Source of the DNA: an uncultured Elusimicrobiales bacterium
GTDB lineage: Bacteria > Elusimicrobiota > Elusimicrobia > Elusimicrobiales > Elusimicrobiaceae
NCBI GenBank assembly: GCA_944324735.1
Contig: CALUXL010000106.1
Location: 1-40,163, forward strand
DNA length: 40,163 nt
Direction: 5' to 3'
The notes beneath the pieces were generated by a model. That model was not told the DNA's origin and did not search any database. It saw nothing but the letters and a program-made list of their open reading frames with translations. This document shows, piece after piece, positions 4,381 to 29,522 of this stretch. A program made the translations under genes and the position numbers. Numbering within the stretch: position 1 is the first letter of the stretch; every line of letters begins with the position of its first letter.

Positions 4381-4944
4381 ATGAAAAATGCGTATATGAA
4401 GGAATTAGGAGGCTTTACGCTTATTGAGCTTTTGGTAGTGGTATTAATTATTGGTATTTTGGCGGCGGTGGCGGTGCCGCAATACCAAGTGGCGGTATGG
4501 AAGGCGCGTTTTGCTGCTTATATGCCCTTGGTAAAGCATATTAAAGACGCGCAAGAAGCCTATTTTATGGCTAATGGCCGGTATGCTGCCAATTTTGATG
4601 AACTGGGGATAGATTTGCCGCCCGGCGAAGCGGTTTCGTCCAATCGGTTTACGGGAACGCCCGGCATTAAATACCAAAACGGCATGGTAGTGTTTACCAG
4701 CGGGTTATTTGCCGGTGTGGTAAGAGGTGGGGAAAACGCAGAGCCTTTTGGGGCGTATGCCGTATCTTTTGATAATATTTCCGGAAAAGATAATAATCAC
4801 TGGGCGTATGCGCCCAGCCAGCAAGGCTGCCATTATTGGGCCAACCATACCGGACGGTTGATGGAAAAAGTGTGTAAAAGCTGGACAGGCGGAACAATCC
4901 GAACGGCCTATTCCCCCAACGGATTTCCAGGTTATTCGTTTTAG
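4381..4944 (+). CDS. Type IV pilin-like protein (PilE-type)
   Basis: Prepilin motif G|FTLIELLVVVLIIGILAAVAVPQY with E5; C-terminal Cys pair; GAGGGG RBS. Confidence 0.93.
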   Translation: MKNAYMKELGGFTLIELLVVVLIIGILAAVAVPQYQVAVWKARFAAYMPLVKHIKDAQEAYFMANGRYAANFDELGIDLPPGEAVSSNRFTGTPGIKYQNGMVVFTSGLFAGVVRGGENAEPFGAYAVSFDNISGKDNNHWAYAPSQQGCHYWANHTGRLMEKVCKSWTGGTIRTAYSPNGFPGYSF

Positions 4945-10819: not shown

Positions 10820-10841
10820 TTTTACTACAATTTTTACTACA
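10820..10841 (+). repeat. Tandem TTTTACTACA direct repeats, likely integrase arm-type sites
   Basis: Two exact 10-mers (10820-29, 10832-41) between the att core and the integrase end. Confidence 0.5.
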
Positions 10842-11934
10842 CTTTGGGTAACTTTTCCACCGCGCCAGCCAGGGTGACGGGGGATAAGTGGGCGTAAATT
10901 TCGGTAGTTTTTATGCTGCTGTGCCCCAACAGTTTGGAAACAGTGTATAAGTCTACCCCTGCTTGCACCAAATGGCTGGCGTATGTATGCCGCAACTTAT
11001 GTAGGCCGCCTTGAAGCCCGGCTTTTTTTACAAATTTCGCAAATTTGACGGAAAGCCCTTCCAGGGTTAAGGGGTCCCCATAATAATCATACATGACACG
11101 TTTGCATTTGGGAGAATGCGGCAAAACCCGAAGATAGGAAAGCAAATCCGCCGAGAGGGGGATGTCCCGGCATTCGTTGGTCTTGGGTGTCCAGCCGGGT
11201 TTAGGCTGTACGGTAAGGGTCTTTTTAGTGAAATCTATGTCCCCCCACTCCAAAAATACCATTTCCCCCCTACGCAGGCCCGCCCGCGCCCCCAGCAATG
11301 TGGCGGTTTTATAGGGGCAGTATCCACCGTGTTCTTCGGCCTTTTCGTCCGCGCACTTTAGCACTTGGGCTAATTCCTGCGGGGTAAAGAAATCCACGCG
11401 CCCTTTGGGAGTTTTAAACTTTTTAATGCGTGACAGCTTCATTTCCGGCAGCAGTTCCCACTCCGCCCCTTTGCGAAGCGCGCACTTTACCGCACGTACC
11501 ATACGGTTTATCCCCTCGTTTGACATAAGGCCCATGGGGCGCTTATCCTTTTTGGGGTTATATGTGGCGGCAAGTTTATCTGAAGTATTTTTAAGCCAGG
11601 TTTGGAAGTTTTCCACAAGGTCGAGGTTTATTTCTTCCAGCGTTTTTGGAGAGGCAAACTCTTCAAAATAATTAAGGGCGCGGCGGTCGTGCCCCAGGGT
11701 AATGGGGCTTTTGTTGGCGCGGGACCAGTCCAAATACCGCTGTTTAAATGCTGCCCATGTGCTGGTGCCGTATTTGGAGCGGGATTTGCTTTCCGCCTTG
11801 ATGTCTGCCAGCATGCGCTGGGCCGCCGCCTTGTTTTCACACAAGGCACACTGTTTGCGCTTGCCGTTAACCATAACAGAACCCCAATATACCGGGGAGC
11901 CGGCGCGCTTATAGACAGAAGGTAGTTTAGGCAT
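10837..11934 (-). CDS. int: Tyrosine recombinase / phage integrase
   Basis: LRRGE, PKT, HKLRHTYAS, LLGHS, TEIYAH catalytic motifs. Confidence 0.96.
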   Translation of the reverse strand: MPKLPSVYKRAGSPVYWGSVMVNGKRKQCALCENKAAAQRMLADIKAESKSRSKYGTSTWAAFKQRYLDWSRANKSPITLGHDRRALNYFEEFASPKTLEEINLDLVENFQTWLKNTSDKLAATYNPKKDKRPMGLMSNEGINRMVRAVKCALRKGAEWELLPEMKLSRIKKFKTPKGRVDFFTPQELAQVLKCADEKAEEHGGYCPYKTATLLGARAGLRRGEMVFLEWGDIDFTKKTLTVQPKPGWTPKTNECRDIPLSADLLSYLRVLPHSPKCKRVMYDYYGDPLTLEGLSVKFAKFVKKAGLQGGLHKLRHTYASHLVQAGVDLYTVSKLLGHSSIKTTEIYAHLSPVTLAGAVEKLPKV

Positions 11935-11942
11935 AGAAAGAC

Positions 11943-12773
11943 TTATAATCCTAAAGAAGGGCTAAAAAACATTACTTCGGATCCTTGGTAATGTTCTTTA
12001 ACGCTGTAATTTAAACTGTATGTTTTACAGCGGTGAGGCGTGTACAATTTGCGGACTTCTTTAACGTTGTCGTAAGATACTATCCAATGTTTTGAGTACT
12101 TTTTTATATTGTTAGACAAGTTGAGGTGGTCCTTATCTGAGAAGTGATTATAATATAAAGAAGCTCCTTTAACATAATAGGGAGGGTCTAAAAAAACTAA
12201 ACTTTTTTCTGGCAATTCTATTTCCATTCTAGATAAGAAAGCAGAGGCTTCGTCATTAGACAAGTATATCTGGGGTTTAAGTTCGGAAATTCTGAGGATT
12301 TTATCTGCCAGAGCTACTTTATTAAACCTAGCATCTATTTTATATTTACCAGTTTGTTTTTTCCCACCAATAATACCACCGCGGACTACACCGGATACAT
12401 TGGTTCGGTTTAAGAAAAAAGTAGAAAAGCCAAGCTCAAACAAAGAAGCCTTTTCTTTGTTGAATTGGACAGCAAGTTGGCGTTCGTGTTCTTCCACGGT
12501 TATTGGTGTTTTTTGCATTGTGCAAATAAGCCGTTCTGGCTCATTTAGCACGGAGTGCCAAAATGCATAAATAGAACGATCTAAATCGTTTATATATATT
12601 CTGGACACAAACCCGGAAAACAATAGATTTAAGGCCAAACCCGCCCCCCCAGCAAATGGTTCGGCATAAGCTCCGCCCACTAGGTCGTTTTTATTCAACA
12701 GTTCTTTTATTTGCGTAGCAAGACAAGCCTTACCACCGGGATAACGCAAGGGAGACCAGTTTTTATGTTTCAT
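11943..12773 (-). CDS. DNA adenine methyltransferase, Dam/D12 class
   Basis: SPLRYPGGK, EPFAGGAG, INDLD, FLNRT, FLDPPYY. Confidence 0.92.
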   Translation of the reverse strand: MKHKNWSPLRYPGGKACLATQIKELLNKNDLVGGAYAEPFAGGAGLALNLLFSGFVSRIYINDLDRSIYAFWHSVLNEPERLICTMQKTPITVEEHERQLAVQFNKEKASLFELGFSTFFLNRTNVSGVVRGGIIGGKKQTGKYKIDARFNKVALADKILRISELKPQIYLSNDEASAFLSRMEIELPEKSLVFLDPPYYVKGASLYYNHFSDKDHLNLSNNIKKYSKHWIVSYDNVKEVRKLYTPHRCKTYSLNYSVKEHYQGSEVMFFSPSLGL

Positions 12774-12813
12774 GTGAATATATTAACAAATAAATTTTGT
12801 TTTGGCCATAGTT

Positions 12814-14397
12814 TTATTCTATGGGATCAATTTCTAGTTTTTTTGCCAAAACATTACAGGCTTTTTTAAAGTCTTTTATGAAATTTGTACACCCGTCAGG
12901 ATGACGTTCTTTCCACAAAGTAAATAGCTTAAGTTGGATTGTTGTTTTTTTAAAAAATCGTTTAGCAAATTGCTTCTGTTCGCTGGAGCCTTGTGGATAA
13001 GAATCAAATTTAGCAGGCAAAAAATCTTTTAATATTACATCCTGTTTTATTCCGAAGCGTTTTTTAAAGTCTTCTGTATCCATATCTTTGATTAATTTAT
13101 AAACAGCCACCTCAAAACATTCTTCTTCTGGTAGAGGTACAATAGTTCCGGCTTTTTGAGCGATATGTTTTTGGGAAGGAGAAAGAACCTTTTTCCAGTC
13201 CCCATCCATCACAATAATACCGTGGTGTAAGTCATAAAATTTTTTTTGATATAAGGTAATATATTGCGGCAAACCTATGGATATGGTTTGAAATGATACA
13301 CGATTTCGAATATCTATTGGTAAAATTCTAGAGGCCAACATTGTTGCCGTTGTATCCTCACAGTAGACTTTTATTTTTTCAGGCTTGTAATCAATCAACT
13401 CTAAATCGGCCTCGACCTCTTTGTAACCGCGCATAGTAACTATATCTTTGATTTTTATTCCACTGGTTTCTCTTTCCAAGAATAATACTTTATGGTTTTT
13501 ACCAGAAACATCAGGCAATGATAATTTTTTTAGTTCGTCCAACATGACTTTAGAATGAGAGGTAAACACAATTTGTAAATCCAATTCCTGTGCTTTGTTA
13601 GCTAAAAATTCTAACATCTTACGTTGGGCCCATGGATGTAATGTTACATCCAGTTCATCTATAAGCAAAATACCACCTTTGTATTCACTAGGGTATTTGG
13701 TCTTTAGATTCTGGAACGACAGCACTGCTATGATAATTTTGGCTACATTTCCTTGCCCTGCCGAATTGGTTAAATAGGAGCAATCACTAGCATTAACCCC
13801 CTCGAAAATATCCGTACCACTTTTGGCAATAACAGGAACGGCCGTTACAGGGGATATATCCGTTAAAATAGAGGCATAAGCCGAAGTGAATTCGTCTTTT
13901 AACCCATTGTCTTCCAAGCGTATAGTAGGGGATTTTTTGTGCAAATCGCTTTCTCCAATTGGATTTAAGCGTCTTAAGCTCAAATAGTATACTGGGCGTT
14001 CTACATAATTTATTTTGGAATTTTTATCTTTTGCATACCAAAATCGAATCGGATTTTTTTCGTTATATCGAGGATAACTTTTAATAGGATATTCAGATAT
14101 ATGATCTGTTACACTTTCGTTTAAATACAATGTCCATTGGTGAGAGCCAATCTCTTCATATTTGATGTCAAACTTAAACTTTTCAGCCATTTGGGATTTG
14201 AAATTATATCCATCCAAGGACTTTTCTTTAGCGAAGATATGATCATCCGGTATCGTGAAACCTTGGCTGATAATACCTAACAAGGTGGATTTTTGGGTTT
14301 TGTTTCTTCCAAAAATTCCAGTTAGCCATTTACCCAAGGTAAATTCTTGGTTTTCTATTGCCCGAAATTTAGTAATATGGACTTTATCAATAATCAT
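12814..14397 (-). CDS. ABC-type ATPase fused to TOPRIM-like nuclease (OLD-like)
   Basis: Variant Walker A GRNKTQKST, signature SAGQ, Walker B LLIDELD, H-loop FTSHS; C-terminal VYCED and MDGD; GGAGG RBS. Confidence 0.8.
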   Translation of the reverse strand: MIIDKVHITKFRAIENQEFTLGKWLTGIFGRNKTQKSTLLGIISQGFTIPDDHIFAKEKSLDGYNFKSQMAEKFKFDIKYEEIGSHQWTLYLNESVTDHISEYPIKSYPRYNEKNPIRFWYAKDKNSKINYVERPVYYLSLRRLNPIGESDLHKKSPTIRLEDNGLKDEFTSAYASILTDISPVTAVPVIAKSGTDIFEGVNASDCSYLTNSAGQGNVAKIIIAVLSFQNLKTKYPSEYKGGILLIDELDVTLHPWAQRKMLEFLANKAQELDLQIVFTSHSKVMLDELKKLSLPDVSGKNHKVLFLERETSGIKIKDIVTMRGYKEVEADLELIDYKPEKIKVYCEDTTATMLASRILPIDIRNRVSFQTISIGLPQYITLYQKKFYDLHHGIIVMDGDWKKVLSPSQKHIAQKAGTIVPLPEEECFEVAVYKLIKDMDTEDFKKRFGIKQDVILKDFLPAKFDSYPQGSSEQKQFAKRFFKKTTIQLKLFTLWKERHPDGCTNFIKDFKKACNVLAKKLEIDPIE

Positions 14398-16404: not shown

Positions 16405-16998
16405 TTATTGAATATTTAGCTCCTTTCGTGCTTCTAGGTCCGCATCACGAATTAAATCATTTAAACAATTAACAATCTTTTTAAACTTTTCTTTTGCTTC
16501 TTTTTCATTCTTGCTTCCACTTATTTGATTAAAAATCTCTCCTACATTTACTAATTCGTTGCTGATATTTTTTATTGAATGTCTAATCGATTTAGAAAAA
16601 TATAAAGTATTTTCATTAAAAATTTTATGAAAATATTCGGCAGCTTCACTTACTTGACCTTTTAACGCAATATGATTTGCTTTTTCTTCCAAAGAAAGCA
16701 TATCAAAAGGCCCTTCTTCTAATAGCAATAAGTTCAAAGGATCTATAATGTTATTAAGACTATGAAATAATTTTGTATAGGCTTGGTGTTTTTTTTCTAA
16801 GGACAACGTACATTTATACTTTTCAATTTCCAAAGGCATAATGAAAAACTGGGAACATAAAACTGCCCCCATGATACTTATTATTGCTACGGCTATTTCC
16901 ATCTGTCCTATATCATAAAAAATTCTCGCCCCAAACAAAAACAAGGAAAGAGTTACTAACCACAAAATATAAACTTTGAATTTTTTATAGAAAATCAT
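16405..16998 (-). CDS. Hypothetical membrane protein with two N-terminal TM helices
   Basis: Start MIFYKK overlaps the cI stop; two hydrophobic segments followed by a helical domain. Confidence 0.65.
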   Translation of the reverse strand: MIFYKKFKVYILWLVTLSLFLFGARIFYDIGQMEIAVAIISIMGAVLCSQFFIMPLEIEKYKCTLSLEKKHQAYTKLFHSLNNIIDPLNLLLLEEGPFDMLSLEEKANHIALKGQVSEAAEYFHKIFNENTLYFSKSIRHSIKNISNELVNVGEIFNQISGSKNEKEAKEKFKKIVNCLNDLIRDADLEARKELNIQ

Positions 16999-17629
16999 CT
17001 TTTCGAAAAACTCCCTTGTATACGCCCTTAATAAACACATTCTTTAACGGTTTTATAATGGCTTTAAATTTTTCTGTATTAATAGGGCGTAATTCTGCTT
17101 CGCTACCTGTTACAAATAATCTTTTTAATGTATATTCCTCGTCAACAACCGCTAAAACAATTTGTCCATCGTAATCAGTGTATTCTTGTTTCTTCAAAAT
17201 CACATATTCCCCATCTTTGATGGTAGGCTCCATACAGCTTCCTTTGACCTTAACTGCAAAAATACGTTTATCTTTCGTAGGTAAAGGAACGAAATCTATA
17301 GGGTCTTCTGTTAAGTTACTGCCTTTAAAGGTGGCAGCAGAAACAATACCCCACACAGGTATAAATTGAACATCTTCTGGAGAAAAAACATTTTCCAAAT
17401 TTTCCGATAAAAAAGCATCCTTTACTTTTTGTAAAGGTTGTCCCAATACTTTTGCAATGGCTTGTATATTTTCTTCAGAGGGTAACTGAATACCATTCAT
17501 CCATCGAGTAATAGCACTTTGAGTCAGAGCCAACTCTTTAGCCAACTTTGCCTGTGCGCCTCTTAAAACCCCTCCATTCCATTCTTGTAAGAGTTTTTCT
17601 TTTCTGTTCATATTTTCGTTCCTATTCAT
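16985..17629 (-). CDS. cI: CI-like repressor, XRE HTH plus S24 peptidase domain (start 17629 or 17611)
   Basis: QAKLAKELALTQSAITRWMNG HTH; IPVWGIVSAA, VKGSCMEP, TLKRL. Confidence 0.9.
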   Translation of the reverse strand: MNRNENMNRKEKLLQEWNGGVLRGAQAKLAKELALTQSAITRWMNGIQLPSEENIQAIAKVLGQPLQKVKDAFLSENLENVFSPEDVQFIPVWGIVSAATFKGSNLTEDPIDFVPLPTKDKRIFAVKVKGSCMEPTIKDGEYVILKKQEYTDYDGQIVLAVVDEEYTLKRLFVTGSEAELRPINTEKFKAIIKPLKNVFIKGVYKGVFRKDDFL

Positions 17630-17654
17630 AAAATAAGGCAAAACAACACACCTC

Positions 17655-25047: not shown

Positions 25048-25893
25048 ATGAGCGGGCCTATTTATCCTAATTGCCCTAATTTTACATTAGGAGAGCATTG
25101 CTATAATTGTGGGGTACAATTATGTTCTAAAATTAAATGCGGGAGGAAAAACCGTTGCCCAGCAGGGTATACAAAAGAACATATTCCCCCGAAATCTTTT
25201 TTTGAAATAAACAAAATAATAGATTCTATTGACTCAAATCCTCCCATATCAGATATCACAGTTCCATCTTGCCTTGTGTGTAATAATAAAGCCAGTATAA
25301 ACGACGAATATTTTGTGCGTTATATTGTAATTATGTCTGCGGTAAGAGTAGAATTTCCAAATAAACTTCTTAAAGAAACTATTCGTAAATTTAAAAGAAA
25401 TCAGGCCCTAATAAAAGAATTTTCTCAAGCTCCATATAACATGGTTGATATGGTTACACCAAACAACATATTAGTAGCTAAAACCCAAGCTATCAAAATG
25501 CCAGAGAAACATAAAATAGGTTTTTTTGCATGTTTAGAAAAGATAGTCAAAGGTTTATATTACAAACATTTAGGACATGTCCTAACCCAAAACATTCATT
25601 TAGCTTGGACAAATAGTGTTTTTCTTGCAGAAGGCAATATATTAAAAATTCCTTTTTTGCCTGATAATCTTGTAGATATATTACGAACAGCATTTAAGGA
25701 ACAATATACAGAAAGAAGGGAAGGAACGCTTTTTTTGAAAGTGGTAAATAAAGGCTTTCAAACAAATAATTTTAGGTATGCTTTTATTTTCTTAAGGAAT
25801 CAAGATGGAGAAGAATATCTGATTGTTTTTTTAAGTTTTTATGAACAATCGGAATTTATTTATGTTTTGACTAAGAATAATTCCCCTACTTGA
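25048..25893 (+). CDS. HNH-like nuclease domain protein
   Basis: CYNCG...TKEHIPPKSFF...TVPSCLVCNN...DEYF; low GC; AGAGG RBS. Confidence 0.75.
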   Translation: MSGPIYPNCPNFTLGEHCYNCGVQLCSKIKCGRKNRCPAGYTKEHIPPKSFFEINKIIDSIDSNPPISDITVPSCLVCNNKASINDEYFVRYIVIMSAVRVEFPNKLLKETIRKFKRNQALIKEFSQAPYNMVDMVTPNNILVAKTQAIKMPEKHKIGFFACLEKIVKGLYYKHLGHVLTQNIHLAWTNSVFLAEGNILKIPFLPDNLVDILRTAFKEQYTERREGTLFLKVVNKGFQTNNFRYAFIFLRNQDGEEYLIVFLSFYEQSEFIYVLTKNNSPT

Positions 25894-26008: not shown

Positions 26009-27580
26009 GTGGCAACAAAACTTAACAAACAACAAGAAGATTTTGCAAAAGCCGTCTTGACCGAAAAGACGGCCGTTGCCGCATGGAAAAAAAGCCACCC
26101 GGGCAGTAAGGCCAGTGCCAAAACGGCTAAAGAAAAGGCCAGCCGCCTTTTAAAAAACCCGGCTGTGGCTAGCCGGATAGCAGCGCTTAGGCAACAGGCT
26201 GCCGGCCCGGCTATTATGACGCTGGCAGACATTTTGAATTTTTGGTCTTTGACAACGCAAAACGGCAGTGAGGACATCTTTGCCCGCTTATCGGCCAGTA
26301 AAGCACTGGCCCAGCATTACTACAAGCTGGAAGCGGCCAAACAAAACGCGCCCCAGCCGGTGCAGGAGCCCCCGCAAAACGCGGCAGATTTTGCCCAATT
26401 TTGCGAGCGTCACGCTTACCCCCGGCCCTACCCCAAACAGGTAGAAATGGCCGAATTTGTACAAGGAAGCGGCCCTCGGCTGGTATTAGGCTCGCGCGGC
26501 TACGGCAAGACGGACTATGGGGTTATCTGCGCCCCCGCTTGGAAAATACTGCACGATCCTCAGGACACGTATCTTATCCTTACCAAAGAAAAAGCGCGCG
26601 GCACGGAAATCATAAGCGAAATTGCCCGCATTTTGACCGAGGAAGGCGTTACCCTTGCCAAAAGCAGTTCCCTGCGCCTGGTGCTGGCGGGCCACACCGG
26701 CAAAGACCCCAACGTGGCGGTGCTTCCGCTACGCAGTAAGTCTTTCCGCGGCCGCCACCCCAAGCATATTATTTGCGACGACCTTATCACCCCCGACGAC
26801 GTAAGCAAGGCCGAGCGCGACAAGGTGGAAGCCGTACGGGCCGAACTTATGAAGCTTACCGAAAATGTTTGCTTTATCGGCCAGCCGGCCCACGCTAAAG
26901 ACGTATACGCCAAACTGCGCAACCTGCCCGGCGTAAAAAAGCTGGAAGTACCTTACGGCTCTATCCCGCAGTTGGACGTTAATTTAGACGCCCAACGCGC
27001 CGCCGGCATTAGCGAGGAAAGCATACAGGCAAGCTACTTCCTGCAAATTGGCGAGGCCGAGCGCATGCCCTTTTCGGGTGTGGAATATGTGGACTTCTTC
27101 CCCAGTGGCACCAGTACAGGGTTTATAGACCCCAGCCACGAAGGGGTAGACTACACCGCCATGGCGATAGGCGCCATGAATTTTGACCGCTTTATCGTGG
27201 CGGGTTTTGCCTGGCCCAAAGCGTGGGATGATTGTCTGGAAGACATCCTAAGCGTAATAAAAGCGTACCGTGTAGCCTGTTTTGCGTTTGAAACCAACGG
27301 CCTGGGTAAACACCCCGTTATTTTGCTTCGCCGCATGGGGGCCCGGGTGGACGAGTGGAAAAGCACCGAAAACAAACACGGCCGCATTTTAAACGCGGCT
27401 ACCGGCAAGCAGTTTATAAAGCTGGCCCAATATTTGCCGCCCGAGCTTCAAACCCCGGCGTTTAGGCAGGCGCAGCAGACATTTAACAATATGGTTTTGG
27501 ACTATGAATACAAGGCCGAGCACGACGACGCGCCCGACGCGCTGGCCAACTTAATGAAATATGTAGGACTGGTAAAATAA
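26009..27580 (+). CDS. Terminase, small-subunit domain fused to large subunit
   Basis: N-terminal LNKQQE.FA...A..KASRLLKNP.V...I..L (TerS-like); then GSRGYGKT, FRGRHP..IICDDL, FIDPS, ETNG, HDDAPDALA (TerL). Confidence 0.88.
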   Translation: MATKLNKQQEDFAKAVLTEKTAVAAWKKSHPGSKASAKTAKEKASRLLKNPAVASRIAALRQQAAGPAIMTLADILNFWSLTTQNGSEDIFARLSASKALAQHYYKLEAAKQNAPQPVQEPPQNAADFAQFCERHAYPRPYPKQVEMAEFVQGSGPRLVLGSRGYGKTDYGVICAPAWKILHDPQDTYLILTKEKARGTEIISEIARILTEEGVTLAKSSSLRLVLAGHTGKDPNVAVLPLRSKSFRGRHPKHIICDDLITPDDVSKAERDKVEAVRAELMKLTENVCFIGQPAHAKDVYAKLRNLPGVKKLEVPYGSIPQLDVNLDAQRAAGISEESIQASYFLQIGEAERMPFSGVEYVDFFPSGTSTGFIDPSHEGVDYTAMAIGAMNFDRFIVAGFAWPKAWDDCLEDILSVIKAYRVACFAFETNGLGKHPVILLRRMGARVDEWKSTENKHGRILNAATGKQFIKLAQYLPPELQTPAFRQAQQTFNNMVLDYEYKAEHDDAPDALANLMKYVGLVK

Positions 27581-28545
27581 TGGAACTTAACTTTTCAAAA
27601 TTCTTTGGCACAAACACCCAACAGCAAACCGATTTCCAGCTGGACATTTGCTTTCCCTGGGACTTGGCCCAAAAAGACTTTACCGAATGGTTCTGCAAAA
27701 ACCTGTACCGTAAAGTGCTGTTGGACTGTTACGCCCGCGCGGCCGATTTTCCCCAGAAAAAAGAATCCGTCCTGTGGGACAGTGTGGTAAACACCCAGTC
27801 GGCCCGGGGGCTTGTTTCCATTTTGGCGGAAGGCATGACGGATACCGATCATGAAGTCTATTTGCTGTATGTAAACAATACCGTACGCCCCGCCCTAAAC
27901 GAAGAAGAACGCCAAGCCATTTTAAATGACCTTACCGGAGATCACGGCATTATCCTTAGTTTTAAAGATTTTTACCAAACCAAAATTTTAAAACAGCTGG
28001 CCGCCCTGTTATTTTGCGCCCTCAAAAACGCCAATACGGGGCTGCACCTTTCCCAGTCTGTCATATTAAAAATATCCGGCCTGCGGGAAAATATTTCCGT
28101 CCTTAACTCCCAGGGGCCCACTGCCCAGGCCAAAGCACTGGTGCAAGCCCTCACCCAAGACGGCAAAGGCGCCATGTTAGACAGCGGGGACCTGATAGAA
28201 ACCCCGCCCTTTGACCCGGAACCCATGGAAAAAACACTGGACGTTATTTTCGGGCTTATTTCTCTTTCCACGGGGTTGCCGCGCAGTTATGTGGACGGGT
28301 TGGTAAATTCCGGCCTGTCCGACACGGGCGAGGCGGACAGCCTGGCCGTGGAGCGCGCCCTGTCTTTTTATTTTAATTCCATTTTTAAACCGGTGTGTGA
28401 CAAATTGCTTAAATGCAGCCTGGTTTACAAACGTTCCAGCTGGCGTAAATTTGCCGAAGTTGCAAACCTGCTCCCGGTGCTGGAAGCCACCGATATGGTA
28501 CCCACGGAGTACAAAGAAAAACTGATTAAAGAAGTATTCGGCTAA
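27580..28545 (+). CDS. Probable portal protein (short)
   Basis: Directly after terminase; IS.STGLPRSY..G....GL..TGE.D motif typical of DUF1073-like portals. Confidence 0.65.
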   Translation: MELNFSKFFGTNTQQQTDFQLDICFPWDLAQKDFTEWFCKNLYRKVLLDCYARAADFPQKKESVLWDSVVNTQSARGLVSILAEGMTDTDHEVYLLYVNNTVRPALNEEERQAILNDLTGDHGIILSFKDFYQTKILKQLAALLFCALKNANTGLHLSQSVILKISGLRENISVLNSQGPTAQAKALVQALTQDGKGAMLDSGDLIETPPFDPEPMEKTLDVIFGLISLSTGLPRSYVDGLVNSGLSDTGEADSLAVERALSFYFNSIFKPVCDKLLKCSLVYKRSSWRKFAEVANLLPVLEATDMVPTEYKEKLIKEVFG

Positions 28546-29426
28546 TGGGGCAACGCTTTGACCCGCAAACGTGGCTAAAGCGGGTTTTCCCAAAGGGAAT
28601 TGAAAAATCCGGCTTATTAAACGACAAGCTGGAAATTAAAAAAACGTATTTAAAAGCCCTGGTGCGGGCCACGTCCGTAAGCCAAAGGCAGCTGACGCAG
28701 GAAATCTACAAAACGGTAGATTTCTACTTGGAAAAAGAAGAACGCCTTAAAGCGCAGGGCGTAAGGGCATTTAAACAAGAGGCTTTAAACGGCCAGGCCC
28801 TGCTGACGGAGCGTATAAAAAACTTCCTCGTTTACAGCGAGGTGCAAGCGCAGAAAAAGGCGCACAAGGGCCGCATGTACCGCTGGCTCCCGTCCAGCGC
28901 CAAGGAACCCGACCCGGAACACCAACTGCTATACGGCAAAGTGTTTCGCGAAGGGGAAGGCGACAAAGAAGGCTATATGCCTGGCGAGCGCTGGGGCTGC
29001 CAATGCGGCATAGAGTGGCTGGACGACGACGAAGCCTTTAAAGAATTTGCTGGCCGCAAATACAGCGGCTACAAAGGCCAAAAAGCCGTCACTAAATTAA
29101 TGCGCGAACGGCAAGGCTATGTGCCCAATGCGTTTAAAAACAAAGAAATAGGCAACATCAGTTTAATTTGGGGAAACGAAAAAATTGGCTTTGCTCATTT
29201 AATAGAAGGCCGCTCAAAGCAATTTCCCATTGAGGAGTTTTTGAAAGATTTTTCCAGCGTAGTGAAAGAAGGTAAAAAATACCCCAACAAATACAGCAAA
29301 ACGCGTTTTGATTTGTGGGACAAAAAACGGAAAAAGCTAGTTGTGATTGAAACCGTTTACGGAGAGAACAAAAAAATAAACTTTCCCGTCACTATGGTTA
29401 GACAAAAAAATAGACCCAAGCGGTAA
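28545..29426 (+). CDS. MuF/gp7-like head morphogenesis protein with C-terminal PBECR-like RNase toxin domain
   Basis: YRW......H...YG..F...PGERWGCQC (MuF-like); C-terminal EIGNISLIWG...GFAHLI..R (BECR-fold-like). Confidence 0.7.
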   Translation: MGQRFDPQTWLKRVFPKGIEKSGLLNDKLEIKKTYLKALVRATSVSQRQLTQEIYKTVDFYLEKEERLKAQGVRAFKQEALNGQALLTERIKNFLVYSEVQAQKKAHKGRMYRWLPSSAKEPDPEHQLLYGKVFREGEGDKEGYMPGERWGCQCGIEWLDDDEAFKEFAGRKYSGYKGQKAVTKLMRERQGYVPNAFKNKEIGNISLIWGNEKIGFAHLIEGRSKQFPIEEFLKDFSSVVKEGKKYPNKYSKTRFDLWDKKRKKLVVIETVYGENKKINFPVTMVRQKNRPKR

Positions 29427-29489
29427 GTGTAAGGCGTTGCATGAACACTTATTTTAAAAGAGGCTTCTTCCTCTTTCCGTTAGGTCTAT
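29404..29489 (-). ncRNA. Candidate ~85-nt three-way-junction RNA convergent with the MuF-toxin gene
   Basis: Own promoter; P1 AGACCUAA-CGG/CCG-c-UUGGGUCU, P2 AAAGAGG/CCUCUUU, P3 UAAGUGU/ACACUUA, then U7. Confidence 0.6.
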
Positions 29490-29493
29490 AAAC

Positions 29494-29522
29494 AGTATAG
29501 CGAAAAAGTACGTGTTTTTCAA
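29494..29522 (-). promoter_or_regulatory. Antisense sigma70 promoter inside the head operon
   Basis: Minus strand TTGAAA (29522-17), 17 bp, TATACT (29499-94). Confidence 0.7.

What the first reader, a model, noticed from the sequence alone, without database searches (positions are those of the whole stretch)
28545..29522. MuF head protein-RNase toxin fusion paired with a convergent structured small RNA instead of an immunity protein
Seen in sequence: the MuF-like gene has a ~130-aa C-terminal extension (IGNISLIWG..GFAHLI..R). Only 105 bp separate it from the scaffold gene, leaving no room for an immunity ORF. That gap holds a minus-strand TTGAAA-17-TATACT promoter whose transcript would start near 29488 and fold almost entirely: an 11-13 bp closing stem, two 7-bp hairpins (loops AAGAAG and UCAUGCAACGCCUU), then U7. 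The closing stem has a U-G wobble on the minus strand that is an A-C mismatch on the plus strand. The RNA's 3' end overlaps the last 7 codons of the toxin gene. Established: MuF proteins of temperate phages carry polymorphic C-terminal toxins, usually followed by a protein immunity gene, and BECR-fold domains are RNases. Inference: a lysogen-expressed RNA antitoxin, either antisense (type I-like) or a tRNA-like decoy binding the nuclease (type III-like), guarding a virion-delivered RNase.
Basis: partly seen in the sequence, partly recalled or inferred. Interest (0 to 1): 0.85.

Follow-up and report, generated by a model that had tools for sequence, protein, structure and literature searches.

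The report
RNA antidotes for phage-delivered RNases
A phage head protein tipped with a predicted RNA-cutting enzyme is followed, on the opposite strand, by a promoter motif and a conserved folded small-RNA sequence that changes whenever the enzyme changes and also turns up alone in host chromosomes, in tandem sets and beside CRISPR arrays, so it is likely an RNA antidote to an enzyme the phage would inject.

Summary
Observation confirmed and widespread. The gene is MuF fused to a PBECR1 predicted RNase in a temperate Elusimicrobiota prophage. The convergent promoter plus structured RNA follows 16 of 21 extended MuF genes and 0 of 69 short ones; an antisense promoter motif follows 40 of 53 PBECR1 domains from several phyla, including internal domains of polyvalent proteins. 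The RNA type swaps with the nuclease tip (PBECR1, PBECR3, LPD13, LPD3, CdiA_C). Three-way junctions covary, with a likely loop-loop kiss. Nuclease-free orphan copies, the window's type included, sit in host chromosomes as mixed tandem sets and at the head of Cas9-type CRISPR arrays, also in this genome. No Rfam match; no paper found. Best reading: a type III-like RNA antitoxin that binds the nuclease (0.62); antisense control fits poorly. No transcript, toxicity or binding is shown here; Northern-validated antisense RNAs of unknown role are listed for H. pylori HP1116 (jhp1044 family). The scan noted a similar MuF-RNA pair on other DNA (e1-6788319).

The parts
28545..29426 (+). MuF-PBECR1 fusion gene (293 aa), between portal-like gene and scaffold-position gene
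28545..29021 (+). MuF head-morphogenesis part, shared with short MuFs and with PBECR3- and LPD13-tipped forms
29022..29423 (+). PBECR1 predicted RNase domain, BECR fold
29196..29198 (+). His218, invariant in 24 aligned homologues; predicted catalytic histidine of PBECR domains
   Evidence: PMC5512222 section 19
29391..29393 (+). Thr283, invariant in 24 aligned homologues; predicted catalytic Thr/Ser
29494..29522 (-). sigma70-type promoter motif TTGAAA-17-TATACT, convergent on the nuclease gene
   Evidence: conserved in relatives
29404..29488 (-). predicted ~85-nt small RNA, three-way junction ending in U7
29477..29489 (-). closing helix P1, 5' arm (pairs with 29423-29410, one bulged base at 29420)
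29457..29476 (-). hairpin P2 with 6-nt loop (29469-29464); first three loop bases predicted to pair with the end of the P3 loop
29424..29451 (-). hairpin P3 with 14-nt loop (29444-29431), nearly invariant in five family members
29404..29410 (-). U7 run at the predicted 3' end, inside the last codons of the nuclease gene
10837..11934 (-). phage integrase (context: temperate prophage)
16985..17641 (-). CI-like repressor, HTH plus S24 peptidase (context)

Best explanation
The minus-strand unit likely encodes a small RNA antitoxin that would bind and block the predicted PBECR1 RNase at the tip of the MuF head protein, doing the job an immunity protein does in other MuF toxins. Shown: gene anatomy, BECR fold and kept catalytic residues, promoter motif matching the host phylum, covarying three-way junction, strict pairing with nuclease tips, orphan copies in hosts. 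Inferred: the RNA is made from a host promoter in the lysogen and right after DNA entry; it folds into a compact kissing-loop shape that a nuclease subfamily recognises; it protects the producer cell during late expression and the lysogen against incoming virions carrying the same enzyme; phages and hosts collect RNAs for other subfamilies as cross-immunity.
For: Unit present after 16 of 21 extended MuF genes, 0 of 69 short ones, which mostly abut the next gene (median gap 17 nt). Antisense promoter motif 60-150 nt past 40 of 53 non-redundant PBECR1 domains, against 6 of 53 on the sense strand and 15 of 134 other ORF ends; fold z of -2 or lower in 28 of 53 there, against 8, 5 and 3 of 53 in control windows. 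Motif follows the host: sigma70, TAnnTTTG, TGnTAnAAT (assignment of these motifs to Bacteroidota and Campylobacterota is recalled). In one 2314-aa Helicobacter prophage protein all 3 antisense extended -10 boxes follow the 3 nuclease domains, none on the sense strand. Two-sided changes in 16 of 23, 5 of 21 and 12 of 25 pairs in three subfamilies, each 0 of 500 shuffles. Kiss triplets pair in 15 of 15 cells of the window type (AAG:CUU, GGG:CCC twice, GAG:CUU, GAG:CUC) and 33 of 33 in a sister type. Orphans: tandem mixed sets in G032 (3 modules between lysS and macB/lolC) and G098 (4 modules between a sigma70-family gene and a nitroreductase); no PF18809 in 0 of 5 orphan-bearing genomes tested, 94-99% complete. 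Phages add foreign modules in tandem (L005, L150, four in L163). Northern-validated antisense RNAs are listed for HP1116 and HP0488 (PMC8322730 Table 1); HP1116 is JHP1044, a four-PBECR protein family.
Against: No transcript seen: runs laid were contigs, and the one true RNA run did not cover the locus. No PBECR toxicity or RNA binding was found in the papers read. RNA and nuclease are adjacent, so their co-inheritance is expected from linkage alone. Some orphans carry nuclease tails and scaffold stubs (L149, L250) and may be recombination debris. 13 of 53 domains had no promoter call; units inside Helicobacter ORFs fold weakly (z -1.9 to +0.7). Short-MuF controls come from other hosts and are not phylogenetically matched. 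The loop-swap test is not cleanly diagonal. Model R1 does not hit the window RNA, so subfamilies are linked by architecture more than by sequence. The H. pylori RNAs were not mapped to domain ends, and 46% of its ORFs have antisense starts. Shuffle controls ignore relatedness.
Confidence: 0.62

Rival explanations
1. Cis-antisense or transcriptional-interference control (type I-like): the convergent transcript lowers leaky late-operon expression of the nuclease gene in the lysogen.
For: Always convergent and overlapping or abutting the nuclease 3' end; present only with nuclease tips.
Against: Overlap is at the 3' end, not the ribosome site; ends are paired and tertiary-like contacts covary; orphans lie where no complementary nuclease mRNA exists; antisense cannot stop a protein delivered from a capsid (inference).
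Confidence: 0.13
2. The RNA is a cofactor, guide or dedicated substrate of the nuclease: a ribonucleoprotein packed in the virion that acts on host RNA, such as tRNA or crRNA.
For: One RNA per nuclease domain and subfamily matching; conserved loops.
Against: No variable guide-like segment: variation is compensatory; hosts without the nuclease keep the RNA; a host-type constitutive promoter suits the lysogen better than late packaging (inference).
Confidence: 0.1
3. The RNA acts on something other than the neighbouring domain, for example as a decoy for host or rival RNases or as a helper of CRISPR or RNA repair, and is only genetically linked to the MuF tip.
For: Orphans sit at CRISPR array heads and upstream of rtcB.
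Against: RNA type switches exactly with the tip in near-identical MuF backbones; no complementarity to the CRISPR repeat beyond 6 nt, so not a tracrRNA.
Confidence: 0.08
4. An elaborate terminator or RNA-processing site travelling with interchangeable tip cassettes; orphans are neutral relics.
For: U-run at the gene end; plus strand also folds; relic-like loci exist.
Against: A host-matched antisense promoter is kept; multi-helix covariation with conserved loops; tightly packed mixed arrays under one or two promoters, with no PBECR1 or MuF remnant found by HMM in the orphan loci tested.
Confidence: 0.07

Closest known systems
MuF polymorphic toxins (Jamet et al. 2017, PMC5576092; passages read)
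   Same: MuF with a swappable C-terminal toxin domain in the packaging module of a temperate phage; proposed virion delivery.
   Different: 89.4% of the 191 toxin genes there are followed by a small putative immunity ORF; here there is none, and a convergent RNA unit takes its place.
PBECR domains of polyvalent proteins (Iyer et al. 2017, PMC5512222; section 19 and passages read)
   Same: PBECR1 domain with His and Thr kept, fused to MuF; internal copies in jhp1044-type proteins.
   Different: The passages read describe no RNA partner or immunity factor; the paper speculates on mRNA or crRNA targets.
Type III toxin-antitoxin systems ToxIN, CptIN, TenpIN (PMC12283969; passages read)
   Same: Endoribonuclease likely held by a pseudoknotted RNA that binds it.
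   Different: There the RNA is a tandem repeat upstream in the same operon, before a terminator, and the toxin has the ToxN fold; here a single three-way junction lies downstream on the opposite strand of a BECR-fold virion protein.
AbiF / RCd22 (10.1101/2025.04.15.648962; abstract read) and AvcID (PMC10511110; search listing only)
   Same: Prophage or island toxin neutralised by direct binding of a non-repeat or two-motif RNA.
   Different: Unrelated toxins (HEPN-like, deaminase), defence systems of the cell, no virion fusion, no polymorphic swapping or orphan arrays described in what I read.
CdiA-CT/CdiI, colicin D, RelE/ParE (fold neighbours)
   Same: BECR fold: CdiA-CT of Serratia BWH57 7m5f Z 6.2, rmsd 4.3, 101 aligned; CdiA-CT NC101 5i4q Z 5.3.
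   Different: All solved partners listed are protein immunity factors or antitoxins.

Membership tests
PBECR1 (PF18809) | Match above the curated cut-off | tested here: met
   29.1 bits vs 27.6 for the C-terminal piece; 27.0 for the whole protein; 29.5
PBECR1 (PF18809) | [quoted passage not shown] | tested here: met
   H218 and T283 invariant in 24 close homologues; His at 90% or more in 26 distant ones
PBECR1 (PF18809) | RNase activity | not testable with these tools
   predicted only
MuF polymorphic toxin | MuF N-terminus in the head-packaging module of a temperate phage | tested here: met
   (Phage_Mu_F below cut-off, E 0.002; position after terminase and portal-like genes; integrase and repressor)
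MuF polymorphic toxin | Interchangeable C-terminal domains | tested here: met
   PBECR1, PBECR3, LPD13 or none on the same backbone
MuF polymorphic toxin | Small downstream immunity ORF | tested here: not met
   105-bp gap without ORF
MuF polymorphic toxin | Packaged in the virion and toxic | not testable with these tools
   inferred from family
Type III TA (ToxIN/CptIN/TenpIN) | Tandem RNA repeats and terminator upstream of the toxin, same operon | tested here: not met
   single RNA downstream on the opposite strand; definition
Type III TA (ToxIN/CptIN/TenpIN) | ToxN-type toxin family | tested here: inconclusive
   Pfam names PBECR1 only; fold searches list BECR proteins, none ToxN, but absence from a list does not exclude
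Type III TA (ToxIN/CptIN/TenpIN) | Pseudoknotted antitoxin RNA | tested here: inconclusive
   short loop-loop kiss supported by compensatory changes, not an H-type pseudoknot
Type III TA (general mechanism) | RNA binds and inhibits the toxin protein | not testable with these tools
   inferred from orphans and covariation
Type I TA | Antisense RNA pairing with the toxin mRNA to block translation or trigger decay | tested here: inconclusive
   23-nt overlap with the 3' end in the window; orphans lack a target
Any Rfam 15 family | Match at gathering score | tested here: not met
   none at the window (best E 0.43), none at the RNA in 19 loci or 20 further loci
tracrRNA (orphan copy beside CRISPR array) | Long anti-repeat complementarity | tested here: not met
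   longest shared word with the 36-nt repeat, either strand, 6 nt

The most novel reading that the evidence does not exclude
A widespread, unnamed class of RNA-based immunity: virion-delivered RNases of several families (PBECR1/2/3, LPD3, LPD13, CdiA_C) are each neutralised by a cognate kissing-loop RNA written on the opposite strand, even inside the coding sequence of polyvalent proteins, and bacteria capture these RNAs into chromosomal antidote libraries, some at the head of Cas9 CRISPR arrays, to disarm phage RNases that attack tRNA or crRNA.
Probability: 0.4. Interest if true: 0.96.

Novelty: new variant of a known kind. Interest (0 to 1): 0.88.

Why it matters
PBECR and related domains occur in up to 26% of polyvalent phage proteins (PMC5512222) and no immunity factor for them was found in the papers searched. 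This finding names a candidate antidote for each domain and makes their function testable: the RNA should allow cloning of otherwise toxic domains and reveal their targets. It would extend RNA antitoxins from cellular type III modules to polymorphic, virion-delivered toxins, explain the low-complexity linkers after these domains (Pfam DUF3519 covers one) as dual-coding RNA genes, suggest a role for unexplained H. pylori antisense RNAs, and add a host defence made of captured RNA decoys. Several cultured phages carry the arrangement (BPP-1, Itty13, BcepMigl, ABMM1, a Campylobacter phage).

Tried and rejected
Rfam: no family (the one hit, a SAM riboswitch in L003, lies elsewhere). Expression: one search listed 24 runs; 8 lays (X1, X2, X3, X5, X6, X8, X9, X10) were all contigs; the one true RNA run (X5) did not cover the locus; no conclusion. 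Single-protein scan of viral contigs, plasmid search and an exact pattern scan for the window-type P3 hairpin in viral contigs found nothing. Foldseek gave no match at E 0.001. Weak R2 hits in G088 and G081 and weak R1 hit in G118 look like terminators or coding sequence and were dropped. L096 (internal stop) was left out of the count; it has the unit. Five loci with short flanks were skipped. MAFFT misplaces the kiss in 4 of 12 rows of A6 and shifts P2 of the window by one column in A10, so those per-helix counts are approximate. tRNA mimicry was considered and not shown. A hidden immunity ORF was rejected. Antisense cassettes at the 5' end of homing endonucleases in earlier scan notes are a different arrangement and were not used. 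Paper searches found nothing linking PBECR, LPD13, DUF3519 or MuF tips to an RNA; subscription journals and the supplements of the papers read were not seen and may bear on novelty.

Full report
The window is contig C106 of a 1.57-Mb genome bin. Homologue names point to Elusimicrobiota, near Ca. Avelusimicrobium. From about 10.8 kb on it holds a temperate prophage with integrase, CI-like repressor, RecT, terminase, portal-like gene and head genes.

Observation. The 293-aa ORF 28545-29426 has a weak Phage_Mu_F match and a C-terminal PBECR1 domain above the Pfam cut-off. His218 and Thr283, the residues that Iyer et al. name for active PBECR domains (PMC5512222, section 19 read), are invariant in 24 homologues. 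An AlphaFold model (pLDDT 94.6) is nearest to BECR toxins: CdiA-CT 7m5f Z 6.2, 5i4q Z 5.3, ParE/RelE, colicin D; these are middling scores. The 105-bp gap has no ORF. No Rfam family matches.

The unit follows nuclease tips. The same MuF backbone carries PBECR1, PBECR3, LPD13 or nothing. I collected MuF loci from relatives and three contig collections. After removing near-duplicates, a convergent promoter motif with a transcript folding at z -2 or lower follows 16 of 21 extended MuFs and 0 of 69 short ones; 9 of the short ones have a promoter-like motif but no fold. The five extended exceptions are three tips of 281-309 aa without Pfam match (L021, L094, L106), a 46-aa tail (L080) and one borderline case (L088, z -2.0). 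The short controls come from other hosts, so they are not matched by descent. In Elusimicrobiales the promoter is constant while the RNA behind it changes with the tip. Distant MuFs with LPD3 or CdiA_C tips have the unit with a TAnnTTTG motif (I recall this as the Bacteroidota promoter).

It is not tied to MuF. A profile of distant PBECR1 domains gave 53 non-redundant domains with flanks. An antisense promoter motif ends 60-150 nt past 40 of 53, against 6 of 53 on the sense strand and 15 of 134 other ORF ends in the same loci; the positional profile peaks there (the window was chosen after seeing examples). Fixed 90-nt antisense windows at the domain end fold at z -2 or lower in 28 of 53, against 8, 5 and 3 of 53 in flanking windows. 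Cultured phages show it after terminal domains (Campylobacter phage 3PH123, Acinetobacter ABMM1) and after internal domains of polyvalent proteins (BPP-1, Itty13, BcepMigl, H. pylori phages), where the unit lies inside the reading frame. In a Helicobacter canis prophage protein all 3 antisense TGnTAnAAT boxes in 6.9 kb follow the 3 nuclease domains; in an H. cinaedi prophage 2 of 7 such boxes follow its two PBECR domains. Internal Helicobacter units fold weakly. Pfam DUF3519 spans the domain end and this linker.

Structure. Three subfamilies were tested: L003 type, 16 of 23 pairs with two-sided changes (12 sequences); window type, 5 of 21 (3 sequences); L004 type, 12 of 25 (11 sequences). Each exceeds all 500 shuffles and all slid controls, which do not correct for relatedness. 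In the window type three one-sided changes in P1 make G-U pairs on the minus strand. Five window-type RNAs keep a three-base loop-loop match in 15 of 15 cells (AAG:CUU, GGG:CCC twice, GAG:CUU, GAG:CUC). LPD13-type RNAs show CUGCC:GGCAG, CCCGC:GCGGG, CCUG:CAGG and L003-type CGCC:GGCG, CGCA:UGCG, CCGC:GCGG, but the swap matrix has off-diagonal values as high, so the kiss is likely, not proven. The L003 model also finds LPD13-type RNAs (E 5e-7 to 0.02) but not the window RNA. Among four close contig sets the only change inside the RNA is at 29455, in the unpaired linker. No Rfam hit at the RNA in 39 further loci.

Orphans. Phages add modules of other types in tandem: L005, L150, and four modules under one promoter before a single PBECR1 gene in L163. 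Models found L003/LPD13-type RNAs in 9 of 96 genus genomes, window-type in 5 of 145 family genomes at E below 1e-11 and L004-type in 10 of 145. G032 has three modules (LPD13, L004, window types) under one promoter between lysS and macB/lolC, the gene pair that flanks a pilin-like gene at 4381-4944 in the window. G098 has four modules between a sigma70-family gene and a nitroreductase. G075 has one just upstream of rtcB. PF18809 was found in 0 of 5 such genomes (G032, G113, G098, G062, G075; 94-99% complete); other tip families were not searched there. In G000 itself (C151:7448-7536), G013 and G061 an L004-type RNA with its own promoter motif lies directly before a CRISPR array of 36-nt repeats and 30-nt spacers (12, 20 and 23 repeat copies seen); Cas9 matches in 4 of 5 genomes tested, on the same contig in G061. 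One of 50 spacers matches L148, a prophage with a PBECR1-RNA pair, over 24 of 30 nt. The RNA is not a tracrRNA (6-nt longest match to the repeat). Against selection: L149 and L250 keep nuclease tails and scaffold stubs and look like debris.

Expression. Not shown: all runs laid were contigs. Indirect support: a review table lists Northern-validated antisense RNAs on HP1116 (HPnc5970, 6000) and HP0488 (HPnc2240, 2250) (PMC8322730, passages; the primary paper, Sharma 2010, not read). HP1116 is JHP1044 (PMC549213, table passages), HP0488 shares 1430 bp with it (PMC3046158, one passage), and jhp1044-type proteins hold four PBECR domains. I could not map those RNAs to domain ends.

Mechanism. A predicted RNase made late and likely carried in the head needs protection at the protein level. 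A constitutive host promoter, a compact covarying fold, one RNA type per nuclease type, and value without the cognate gene all fit an RNA that binds the enzyme (0.62). Antisense control explains the position but not the orphans (0.13). Cofactor or guide (0.10), unrelated decoy (0.08) and terminator or relic (0.07) remain. The nuclease target is unknown; fold neighbours and the rtcB and CRISPR contexts suggest tRNA or crRNA (inference).

Relation to known systems. It is a PBECR1-tipped MuF but lacks the immunity ORF seen after 89.4% of MuF toxin genes (PMC5576092, passages). It would work like a type III antitoxin but fails the ToxIN/CptIN/TenpIN layout (PMC12283969, passages); AbiF/RCd22 (abstract) is the nearest precedent for a phage-borne RNA antitoxin. 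A 2026 BECR classification (10.64898/2026.08.28.747851, passages) has no occurrence of 'RNA antitoxin', 'type III', 'noncoding' or 'sRNA'. Ten searches found no description of this pairing; supplements and subscription journals were not seen. An earlier scan note (e1-6788319) saw a similar pair beside a Mu-like MuF and left the link open; it is not independent evidence.

Verdict: real, widespread and apparently undescribed; function inferred. Interest 0.88.

Noticed in passing
G000:C151:7448-8412 (L274:1501-2465): Orphan L004-type RNA with its own promoter motif directly before a CRISPR array (36-nt repeat, 30-nt spacers) in the window's own genome, next to a serine-recombinase-like element; Cas9 match on C30.
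   Followed up: partly
L253:260-1600 (G075:C4): L003-type RNA module just upstream of rtcB on the same strand, in a genome without PF18809; recalls Y RNA-rtcB loci (from memory).
   Followed up: partly
L257:1320-1740 (G066:C6) and L255:1500-1620 (G105:C6): A second Elusimicrobiales phage family with a different carrier protein (weak LPD3 tip in L257) followed by up to four promoter-plus-RNA units in a row.
   Followed up: partly
L254:1500-1710 (G062:C8): Two orphan structured modules under one promoter motif between a flavin reductase and a glycosyltransferase gene.
   Followed up: partly
L021, L094, L106 (MuF tips of 281-309 aa): MuF extensions without Pfam match and without the RNA unit; L106 has what looks like a short sense ORF behind it, a possible protein immunity gene.
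   Followed up: no
L248:1376-2814 (G229:C12): Leucine-rich-repeat protein with a C-terminal PBECR1 domain, also followed by a convergent L003-type RNA.
   Followed up: partly
L154:2880-3130 (Campylobacter phage vB_CJ12660_3PH123): Two annotated tiny ORFs overlie two antisense promoter-plus-RNA units after the terminal PBECR1 domain; the ORFs may be spurious.
   Followed up: partly
window 26009-27580: Terminase gene appears to fuse a small-subunit domain (PF03592, aa 5-92) with the large-subunit ATPase and nuclease part.
   Followed up: no
window 11943-14397 and 25048-25893: Prophage cargo: Dam-type methylase with an AAA_15/AAA_21 ATPase near the integrase, and an HNH-like ORF without Pfam match before the terminase; possible defence genes.
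   Followed up: no
L182:1734-1820: A weak window-type model hit (E 0.03) about 1 kb upstream of the PBECR1 gene, possibly another module.
   Followed up: no
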